From NCBI GenBank assembly GCA_000002445.1, contig CM000208.1, positions 2,208,001 through 2,272,000 on the forward strand: 64,000 nucleotides of DNA, in the 5' to 3' direction. Below the pieces are notes generated by a model. The model was given only the letters and a program-made list of their open reading frames with translations, was not told the origin of the DNA and did not search any database. Source of the DNA: Trypanosoma brucei (Eukaryota). This document shows, in pieces, positions 24,135 to 24,680 of this stretch. The position numbers and the translations under genes were made by a program. Position 1 is the first letter of the stretch, and the number at the start of each line of letters is the position of its first letter.

Positions 24135-24680
24135 ATGACGGCGCCTCTTTTCAGTGCGACCGATGTTCCTGCGGTAGTCACTGAACTTGCACTAAAGAGG
24201 TATGCGGAGTACCTTGTGCGGCGTCGCGAAAAACCTGAAGCAGCGGAAGGAATATCAGGCACTACACTTGAGGAAGCTCTGGCACCGCTGTATTTGCTTC
24301 ATGGAAATACATTCACCTCCGCGATTGGAATTGCGATCCATGGGGCAGAGCACATTTTGAGGTGTGTCGTGCGTCAAGCGGCAGATAGCAATGAAGAAGA
24401 GGGGAAGCAACAACAGCATCAGGACAATCAGGACGGTAAATTCTCTACCAACAGATGCGCGTACATGGTGGGTGATCACTGTATTCTGTCTCTTTTCTAC
24501 TGCAGCTGCAGGGCGTACGGTTACTCTTGCATCAAGCGGCAGGAGGCATCGACGTGCAAACATCTACTTGCTTTGCGGATAGCTCTATTACTGGAGGAAA
24601 ATGGGCTTGCGACTGACTGCATACGTGAAAAGAGGATAACCACAGAGCAGTTTCAGGAAATGGTGCAGAGGCTTCTATGA
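24135..24680 (+). CDS. SWIM-type zinc-finger protein, SWS1/ZSWIM7-like
   Basis: ATG start, 181 aa. The C-terminal motif YMVGDHCILSLFYCSCRAYGYSCIKRQEASTCKHLLALRIAL fits the SWIM CxCx(n)CxH signature and the SWS1 CSCPAF...CKHLLA pattern. Confidence 0.5.
   Translation: MTAPLFSATDVPAVVTELALKRYAEYLVRRREKPEAAEGISGTTLEEALAPLYLLHGNTFTSAIGIAIHGAEHILRCVVRQAADSNEEEGKQQQHQDNQDGKFSTNRCAYMVGDHCILSLFYCSCRAYGYSCIKRQEASTCKHLLALRIALLLEENGLATDCIREKRITTEQFQEMVQRLL

What the first reader, a model, noticed from the sequence alone, without database searches (positions are those of the whole stretch)
24135..24680. Small SWIM zinc-finger protein resembling SWS1/ZSWIM7 (Shu-complex recombination mediator)
The C-terminal motif CSCRAYGYSC...(8)...CKHLLAL matches the SWS1 SWIM signature, CxC(n)CxH with the conserved CKHLLA. 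SWS1-family proteins partner with RAD51 paralogues to promote homologous recombination. In an African trypanosome, HR factors are directly relevant to antigenic (VSG) switching and DNA repair. This protein class has barely been examined in the lineage.
Basis: partly seen in the sequence, partly recalled or inferred. Interest (0 to 1): 0.5.

Follow-up and report, generated by a model that had tools for sequence, protein, structure and literature searches.

The report
Trypanosome SWS1/ZSWIM7 (Shu2-family) orthologue
This 181-residue trypanosome gene, annotated only as a conserved hypothetical protein, is by sequence and by predicted fold the kinetoplastid member of the SWS1/ZSWIM7/Shu2 family, whose members partner RAD51 paralogues in recombinational repair; its function in trypanosomes has not been tested.

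Summary
Window 24135..24680 (+) is a 181-aa ORF carrying C123-x-C125-x15-C141-x-H143-x-x-A146 (CSCRAYGYSCIKRQEASTCKHLLA). The four zinc ligands and the alanine are invariant in 19 kinetoplastid orthologues.

- A profile of trypanosome orthologues, searched against 1.84 billion proteins, returned 68 hits. The sequences read were all small proteins with this architecture. They include proteins that databases name ZSWIM7 and homologues from other Discoba.
- A profile-profile comparison gave 98.7% probability (E 3e-16) across residues 44-181, so the match extends well beyond the zinc knuckle.
- The reverse profile hits only this ORF in the window (52.5 bits).
- No other zinc-finger class matched.

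Lineage-specific features are an acidic, Gln-rich disordered insertion (residues ~81-105) and failure to reach Pfam's generic SWIM model.

The functional claims are inferred, not shown: zinc binding, pairing with a RAD51 paralogue, stabilising RAD51 filaments, and any role in VSG switching. No paper in the held library links SWS1, Shu or ZSWIM7 to trypanosomatids. I rate it a new member of a known kind, of moderate interest.

The parts
24135..24680 (+). Complete coding sequence (181 aa plus TGA) of the kinetoplastid SWS1/ZSWIM7/Shu2-family protein. By gene order it is probably Tb927.10.9170; that identifier is inferred.
   Evidence: ORF list. Identical called gene on a public contig. Orthologues. 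Flanked by CYC12 = Tb927.10.9160 and IleRS = Tb927.10.9190.
24156..24341 (+). N-terminal helical region (residues 8-69; helices 8-32, 45-56, 58-67). It includes the family-conserved 'L-x-x-L-x-x-hydrophobic-x-G-x-x-F-x-x-A-x-x-I' segment (LAPLYLLHGNTFTSAIGIA).
   Evidence: AF2 model secondary structure. Aligned to the LKFVFGSSALQALDLVD segment of ZSWIM7 in hhalign and in the family alignment.
24375..24449 (+). Lineage-specific acidic, Gln-rich low-complexity insertion (residues ~81-105, QAADSNEEEGKQQQHQDNQDGKFST) between strand 1 and strand 2. It replaces the short 'PSGR' turn of ZSWIM7. Its length varies among kinetoplastids and is much longer in Leishmania-type sequences.
   Evidence: Low pLDDT (blocks of 69, 52, 74). 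Gap against ZSWIM7. Long inserts in P0011, P0013-P0016 and P0019.
24453..24500 (+). Strands preceding the zinc site (residues 107-122, RCAYMVGDHCILSLFY), with invariant R107, Y110, V112, G113 and S119. They are equivalent to 'GR..YQV.g...Y.C' of ZSWIM7.
   Evidence: Invariant columns, alignments, strands 108-112 and 115-117.
24501..24572 (+). SWIM zinc-knuckle signature C123-S-C125-x15-C141-K-H143-L-L-A146 (CxC-Xn-CxHxxA, n=15).
   Evidence: Read directly from the sequence. Invariant in orthologues. Same spacing in 67 of 71 homologues. The family-defining motif is quoted from PMC6316741.
24573..24677 (+). C-terminal helix-strand-helix (residues 147-181). It continues the SWIM helix (LRIALLLEENG), then strand 163-168 and terminal helix 170-180. 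It aligns with the 'VSD..l..ll' tail of ZSWIM7.
   Evidence: Model; hhalign alignment to the last residue.

Best explanation
The gene encodes the trypanosome orthologue of SWS1/ZSWIM7, the family founded by yeast Shu2. It is a small one-domain alpha/beta protein. Cys123, Cys125, Cys141 and His143 would hold one structural zinc ion that fixes the helix carrying CKHLLA.

By analogy with every characterised member, it would have no catalytic activity of its own. It would act as the obligate non-RecA subunit of a 'Shu complex': it binds one or more divergent RAD51 paralogues, and the complex binds RAD51-ssDNA filaments and promotes or stabilises them. That favours homologous recombination at damaged or stalled replication forks, and possibly in meiosis.

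In T. brucei the candidate partners are RAD51-3, RAD51-4, RAD51-5 and RAD51-6. I regard RAD51-5 as the most attractive candidate. It is the smallest and most diverged paralogue and has no known partner.

Shown here: the ORF, the conserved motif, family membership by sequence, and the Shu2-like fold of the model. Inferred: zinc binding, partner binding, a role in HR, and any effect on VSG switching.
For: - Motif: CxC-x15-CxHxxA is present and invariant. It equals the family signature CXC...Xn...CXHXXA given in PMC6316741.
- Forward profile search: against 1.84e9 proteins it returned 68 hits. The sequences read were all small proteins of the same architecture. [quoted passage not shown] None of the sequences read shows a MULE, FAR1, bacterial SWIM or larger ZSWIM architecture.
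- Profile-profile comparison: hhalign gave 98.7% probability, E 3e-16, over residues 44-181.
- Reverse test: a ZSWIM7-only HMM hits this ORF alone in the window at 52.5 bits.
- PDB sequence search: three of the five best PDB sequence matches of the family profile are Shu2 chains, aligned at the CsC and C-HLLA positions. Individually they are not significant, with E 3-7.
- Family biology: SWS1 family members bind RAD51 paralogues in every organism studied (PMC6316741; PMC6821187).
- Trypanosome context: trypanosomes have four RAD51 paralogues that act in repair. RAD51-3 affects VSG switching, and RAD51-5 has no detected partner (PMC3170485).
Against: - There is no experimental datum for this protein.
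- The query itself does not reach Pfam SWIM even at E <= 10. Foldseek against the PDB found nothing significant.
- Sequence similarity to yeast Shu2 is not significant.
- The ZSWIM7 set used for hhalign and for the reverse HMM was chosen from hits of the trypanosome profile, so those two tests are not fully independent of the first search.
- The probable gene ID Tb927.10.9170 does not appear in the held supplementary text of the genome-wide MMS RNAi screen. Those files may be hit lists or truncated, so this carries little weight.
- No SWSAP1, Shu1 or Rlp1-type partner has been recognised in kinetoplastids.
Confidence: 0.75

Rival explanations
1. It is a true SWS1-family orthologue whose role in kinetoplastids has diverged. 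Examples would be a role restricted to meiosis in the tsetse stage or to replication-fork bypass, or a role that works through the lineage-specific acidic insertion with a non-RAD51 partner. In these cases it would have no measurable effect on bloodstream-form DNA repair or VSG switching.
For: - Kinetoplastid proteins carry an insertion that ZSWIM7 lacks and that varies widely in length.
- Mouse SWS1-SWSAP1 is dispensable for viability but essential for meiosis (PMC6180034 abstract).
- Only one of the four T. brucei RAD51 paralogues affects VSG switching (PMC3170485).
- The probable gene ID is absent from the held MMS-screen supplements.
Against: - The core fold and all family-invariant positions are retained across Kinetoplastea, including Leishmania. 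That argues for a conserved core interaction.
- The insertion is predicted disordered and poorly conserved.
Confidence: 0.15
2. It is a generic SWIM zinc-finger protein unrelated in function to SWS1, for example a nucleic-acid-binding or ubiquitin-ligase adaptor module. On this view the resemblance to ZSWIM7 rests only on the short zinc knuckle.
For: - The best-scoring stretch of many distant hits covers only profile positions ~110-160, the SWIM region.
- One metagenomic relative carries the automatic label 'predicted nucleic acid-binding Zn finger protein'.
- Pfam has only the generic SWIM model.
Against: - The hhalign alignment spans 107 columns, from the N-terminal helices to the C-terminus.
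- Several hits align over profile positions ~40-180 (P0040, P0056, P0042).
- The hits read are the same small architecture, not other SWIM families.
- The family-specific Ala after CxH is present.
Confidence: 0.07
3. It is a chance ORF or mis-annotation with no protein product.
For: It is short, has no Pfam hit, and carries no name beyond 'hypothetical'.
Against: - It is conserved at 47-51% identity across Trypanosoma and recognisably across Kinetoplastea and other eukaryotes, with invariant ligand positions.
- It lies on the coding strand of a unidirectional gene array.
- The fold prediction is confident.
Confidence: 0.01

Closest known systems
Animal ZSWIM7 / SWS1 (human Shu complex subunit, partner of SWSAP1 and SPIDR)
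   Same: - Small single-domain protein.
- Identical motif spacing, CxC-x15-CxHxxA, with CKHLLA.
- Collinear similarity from the N-terminal helices (L..L.f.G..f..A..i) through 'GR..Y.V' to the C-terminal helix.
- hhalign 98.7% probability, E 3e-16.
   Different: - About 40 residues longer.
- Carries an acidic, Gln-rich disordered insertion where ZSWIM7 has the tight 'PSGR' turn, plus a two-residue 'HGAE' expansion.
- Only ~20-29% identity.
- Falls below Pfam's SWIM threshold, whereas ZSWIM7 proteins pass it.
- No SWSAP1 or SPIDR orthologue is known in kinetoplastids.
Fungal Shu2 (S. cerevisiae and E. gossypii; crystal structures 5XYN, 6DEX)
   Same: - Same zinc-ligand pattern, with LLA after the His.
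   Different: - Shu2 has a 59-residue insertion domain inside the motif (n=59) that contributes to the Shu1 interface (PMC5727457). The trypanosome protein has n=15 and places its insertion elsewhere.
- Sequence similarity is not significant (E 3-7).
S. pombe Sws1-Rlp1-Rdl1 and C. elegans SWS-1-RFS-1-RIP-1 complexes
   Same: They share the expected mode of action: the SWIM subunit bridges or stabilises divergent RAD51 paralogues that remodel RAD51 filaments (abstracts listed; PMC6316741).
   Different: The partner set in trypanosomes is unknown. The four known paralogues (RAD51-3, -4, -5, -6) have not been tested against this protein (PMC3170485).
Generic SWIM domain (Pfam PF04434; MuDR/FAR1 transposase-derived proteins, MEKK1, bacterial SWI2/SNF2-associated)
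   Same: The CxCxnCxH zinc knuckle.
   Different: - The query does not match the Pfam model.
- The sequences flanking the knuckle are homologous only to the SWS1 family.
- No member of the other SWIM families appeared among the hit sequences read.

Membership tests
Shu2/SWS1 (ZSWIM7) family | SWIM zinc-knuckle CxC...Xn...CxH | tested here: met
   C123-x-C125-x15-C141-x-H143 read from the sequence. All four ligands are invariant in 19 orthologues and in the 45-sequence family alignment.
Shu2/SWS1 (ZSWIM7) family | Family-specific alanine three residues after the His (CxHxxA), as defined in PMC6316741 | tested here: met
   A146 (CKHLLA) is invariant in kinetoplastids and present in 71 of 73 homologues. 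The motif definition is quoted.
Shu2/SWS1 (ZSWIM7) family | Significant sequence homology to recognised members beyond the zinc knuckle | tested here: met
   The profile search retrieves named ZSWIM7 proteins. hhalign gives 98.7% probability, E 3e-16, over 107 columns, residues 44-181. The reverse HMM scores 52.5 bits and is unique in the window. Caveat: the ZSWIM7 set was drawn from the forward hits.
Shu2/SWS1 (ZSWIM7) family | Shu2-type whole-protein fold (beta-sheet flanked by helices with embedded zinc site) | tested here: met
   [not shown]
Shu2/SWS1 (ZSWIM7) family | Binds one zinc ion through the Cys3His site | not testable with these tools
This needs ICP-MS or a zinc anomalous signal on purified protein.
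Shu2/SWS1 (ZSWIM7) family | Forms a complex with RAD51 paralogue(s) | not testable with these tools
   No complex prediction or interaction data were available. T. brucei encodes RAD51-3, -4, -5 and -6 (PMC3170485).
Shu2/SWS1 (ZSWIM7) family | Loss causes an HR defect or MMS sensitivity | tested here: inconclusive
   The probable gene ID Tb927.10.9170 does not occur in the held supplementary text of the genome-wide MMS RNAi screen PMC5542689. The ID is inferred and the files may be partial.
Pfam SWIM (PF04434) | Score at or above the gathering threshold (19.6 bits) against the Pfam model | tested here: not met
   The query has no SWIM hit even at E <= 10. 25 of 45 members of the same alignment match at E <= 0.1, and several pass the cutoff. 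This is a sensitivity limit of the short model, not evidence of a different zinc-finger class. UniRef labels the orthologues 'SWIM-type domain-containing protein'.

The most novel reading that the evidence does not exclude
Trypanosomatids possess a previously unrecognised Shu complex. In it, this SWS1 orthologue pairs with RAD51-5, the smallest, most diverged and so far partnerless RAD51 paralogue, whose Leishmania syntenic counterpart has lost Walker A as Shu-type paralogues have. Alternatively it pairs with a still unidentified SWSAP1-like protein. This complex, rather than the RAD51-3/-4/-6 group, would channel replication-associated lesions into RAD51-dependent recombination, including at VSG expression sites.
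Probability: 0.3. Interest if true: 0.6.

Novelty: new member of a known kind. Interest (0 to 1): 0.42.

Why it matters
VSG switching in African trypanosomes is driven by RAD51-dependent recombination. The RAD51 mediator set studied so far consists of BRCA2 and four RAD51 paralogues (PMC3170485). A Shu-type complex has not been part of that picture.

Naming this gene gives trypanosome biologists a concrete small target that is probably not essential. With it they can ask three questions:
- whether a Shu complex exists in this deep-branching lineage;
- which paralogue it uses, which may explain the orphan status of RAD51-5;
- whether replication-coupled lesion tolerance feeds antigenic variation or, in Leishmania, gene amplification.

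It also extends confident SWS1 orthology into Euglenozoa, with a bridge through other Discoba. This supports the view that the Shu module is ancestral to eukaryotes. That view is already the stated expectation in the field: 'conserved in all eukaryotic lineages' (PMC6821187). The result therefore fills a gap and overturns nothing.

Tried and rejected
- Single-sequence Pfam and PDB searches of the query gave nothing useful. The 7-sequence profile against the PDB gave only a spurious TPR hit.
- The first AF2 model, built from 7 sequences, was too poor (pLDDT 66.7). Its Foldseek top hit, Shu2, was not significant at E 2.4.
- The ZSWIM7-like profile against PDB sequences gave a spurious WDR20 match and no human SWS1 structure.
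- Four literature searches found no paper on a kinetoplastid member: SWS1+SWIM+Trypanosoma, ZSWIM7+trypanosom, Shu complex+trypanosom, SWS1+Leishmania. A broader SWIM search returned only 'swimming' papers.
- Godin et al. 2015 (PMC4391554) and Martin et al. 2006 (PMC1478202) are not held. I could not check whether they already list a trypanosome orthologue.
- I considered C132 as a zinc ligand and rejected it, because it is not conserved in orthologues.
- I considered other zinc-finger classes and rejected them, because there were no recurrent Pfam matches other than SWIM.

Full report
**1. Observation**

The ORF list shows an ATG-initiated ORF of 181 codons at window 24135..24680 on the + strand, ending in TGA.

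In residue numbers this is C123-x-C125-x15-C141-x-H143-x-x-A146 (nt 24501-24572). Among 904 stop-to-stop segments in all six frames of the window (70,345 aa), CxC-x6-25-CxH occurs twice, and with the trailing xxA only here.

The ORF lies in a run of 27 ORFs of at least 200 aa that are all on the + strand, which is the layout of a trypanosomatid polycistronic unit. The identical protein is a called gene on a contig of NCBI assembly GCA_001457755.2. From memory, unverified, I take that assembly to be T. equiperdum OVI. The T. b. gambiense DAL972 protein is 99% identical.

The upstream neighbour matches the published CYC12 in size: 635 aa against the published 71.2 kDa for Tb927.10.9160. The tRNA-synthetase gene downstream fits IleRS, Tb927.10.9190, the identifier used in PMC3273800. 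By order, the gene is therefore probably Tb927.10.9170. That identifier is an inference.

**2. Conservation**

Five other Trypanosoma species have orthologues at 47-51% identity. A profile search of 1.84 billion representative proteins found 68 proteins at E <= 1e-3, of which 16 were at E <= 1e-30.

The strongest hits are kinetoplastid. T. congolense and Leishmania (Viannia) species are named, and all are annotated 'hypothetical' or 'SWIM-type domain-containing'. The series then grades into unnamed environmental sequences.

In a 19-sequence kinetoplastid alignment the invariant positions include all four putative zinc ligands, K142, L145 and A146. They also include a block in the N-terminal half (L49, L52, G57, A63, I66, H69, E72) and the strand segment R107, Y110, V112, G113, S119. 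C132 is not conserved and is not a ligand candidate.

**3. What family**

The query alone matches nothing in Pfam or among PDB sequences. The weaker part of the 68-hit list, however, consists of 130-175-residue proteins with one shared architecture:
- an N-terminal helix;
- L..L.f.G..f..A..iv;
- SGR..yqV;
- yCsCpaF.y.v..r.e..CKHLLA;
- a tail ending ..v.D..l..ll.

[quoted passage not shown] Others come from the jakobid Stygiella, the heterolobosean Pharyngomonas and Paulinella. None of the hit sequences I read shows a MULE, FAR1, bacterial SWIM or large ZSWIM architecture. I read most but not all of the 68 sequences.

Further results:
- 71 of 73 retrieved sequences carry CxC-x14-17-CxHxxA, with n=15 in 67, the same spacing as here.
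- This is the signature the field uses to define the Shu2/SWS1 family: 'CXC...Xn...CXHXXA' (PMC6316741).
- Pfam SWIM is the only recurrent Pfam family among members (25 of 45).

Profile-profile comparison of 19 kinetoplastid sequences against 12 non-kinetoplastid ZSWIM7-like sequences gave probability 98.7%, E 3e-16. It covers 107 aligned columns, from residue 44 to residue 181 of the trypanosome protein. The homology is thus whole-protein and not confined to the 24-residue knuckle. An HMM built only from the non-kinetoplastid set hits this ORF alone among all six-frame segments of the window (52.5 bits). The caveat is that this set was taken from hits of the trypanosome profile.

**4. Fold**

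With 7 sequences AlphaFold2 gave pLDDT 66.7. With the 45-sequence family alignment it gave pLDDT 87.2 and pTM 0.82, with all five models at 86-87. The topology is:
- helices 8-32, 45-56 and 58-67;
- strand 74-79;
- a low-confidence loop around residues 81-105;
- strands 108-112 and 115-117;
- helix 126-134;
- helix 142-155, which starts at CKH;
- strand 163-168;
- helix 170-180.

**5. How it most likely works**

Shown here: a conserved small protein with the SWS1 signature, SWS1-family sequence homology, and a Shu2-like predicted fold.

From established knowledge of the family:
- The Cys3His site binds a structural zinc, and its mutation disrupts Shu complex assembly and function (PMC5727457).
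- In every organism examined, the SWIM subunit binds RAD51 paralogues (PMC6316741).
- The worm complex remodels RAD51 filaments (bioRxiv 10.1101/2025.11.17.685403 abstract).
- Loss typically gives MMS sensitivity rather than general double-strand-break sensitivity (PMC6821187).
- Mouse mutants are viable but sterile (PMC6180034 abstract).

Inferred for trypanosomes: the protein is the non-RecA subunit of a Shu-type complex that supports RAD51 filament function during replication-associated damage and possibly meiosis.

T. brucei has four RAD51 paralogues. RAD51-3, -4 and -6 interact with each other, and only RAD51-3 loss significantly impedes VSG switching. RAD51-5 is the smallest and most diverged and showed no yeast two-hybrid partner. 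Its Leishmania syntenic counterpart has lost Walker A (PMC3170485). Shu-complex paralogues elsewhere are typically small and highly divergent, so I propose RAD51-5 as the leading partner candidate. This is speculation. The SWS1 orthologue is retained in Leishmania.

**6. Differences from known members**

- An acidic, Gln-rich, low-confidence insertion (residues ~81-105) sits between the first two strands, where ZSWIM7 has a tight PSGR turn. It varies greatly in length among kinetoplastids.
- Yeast Shu2 instead has a 59-residue insertion domain within the zinc motif that contacts Shu1. The trypanosome protein has the animal-type n=15.
- The protein falls below the generic Pfam SWIM model. That probably explains why it has remained 'hypothetical'.

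**7. Novelty and score**

No paper in the held library connects SWS1, ZSWIM7 or the Shu complex with trypanosomatids. Dobson et al. 2011 cite the Sws1 paper only for the S. pombe paralogues. I could not read the 2015 family survey, so a prior listing of a kinetoplastid orthologue cannot be excluded.

[quoted passage not shown] The existence of this gene is therefore expected and not surprising. It is a new, functionally unexamined member of a known kind. Its practical value is as an entry point to the RAD51-mediator network behind antigenic variation. Interest 0.42.

Noticed in passing
window 21803..23758 (+); likely true start ATG at 21851: The ORF immediately upstream is a 635-651 aa protein with a strongly basic Arg/Ser/His-rich tail and no Pfam hit. 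By size and position it is CYC12 (Tb927.10.9160), the L-type cyclin partner of CRK9 (PMC4783070). The mechanical ORF list starts it at a GTG, but the public gene call uses a downstream ATG.
   Followed up: partly
window 25194..26450 (+): This 418-aa ORF has a PRA1-family match in its N-terminal 180 residues, scoring 29.9 bits against a Pfam cutoff of 30.1. It is followed by a ~240-residue Ser-rich extension with no match.
   Followed up: no
window 28069..31500 (+): A 1143-aa isoleucyl-tRNA synthetase (tRNA-synt_1, Anticodon_1). The T. brucei gene Tb927.10.9190 is reported to be dually targeted through alternative trans-splicing (PMC3273800). About 1.6 kb of intergenic sequence lies upstream.
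   Followed up: no
window 32285..33526 (+): A 413-aa ORF with a NERD (nuclease-related domain) match, E 3e-11. A predicted nuclease-related gene lies about 8 kb from the SWS1-like gene. No link between the two was examined.
   Followed up: no
window 1..64000: All 27 ORFs of at least 200 aa are on the + strand. The whole window appears to lie inside one polycistronic transcription unit, with no strand-switch region.
   Followed up: no
homologues P0027, P0022, P0024-P0026: One kinetoplastid-like relative (P0027) lacks the CxC and the CxH Cys although the flanks align, so it may be a frameshifted assembly or a degenerate copy. Several environmental relatives are 330-540 aa, with very long low-complexity inserts and N-terminal extensions.
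   Followed up: no
window 23988..24134 (+): A pyrimidine-rich tract (ctctattcacttccacttatttgttttcaag) ending in AG lies about 117 nt upstream of the ATG. This is the pattern expected for a trans-splice acceptor. It was read by eye and not tested.
   Followed up: no
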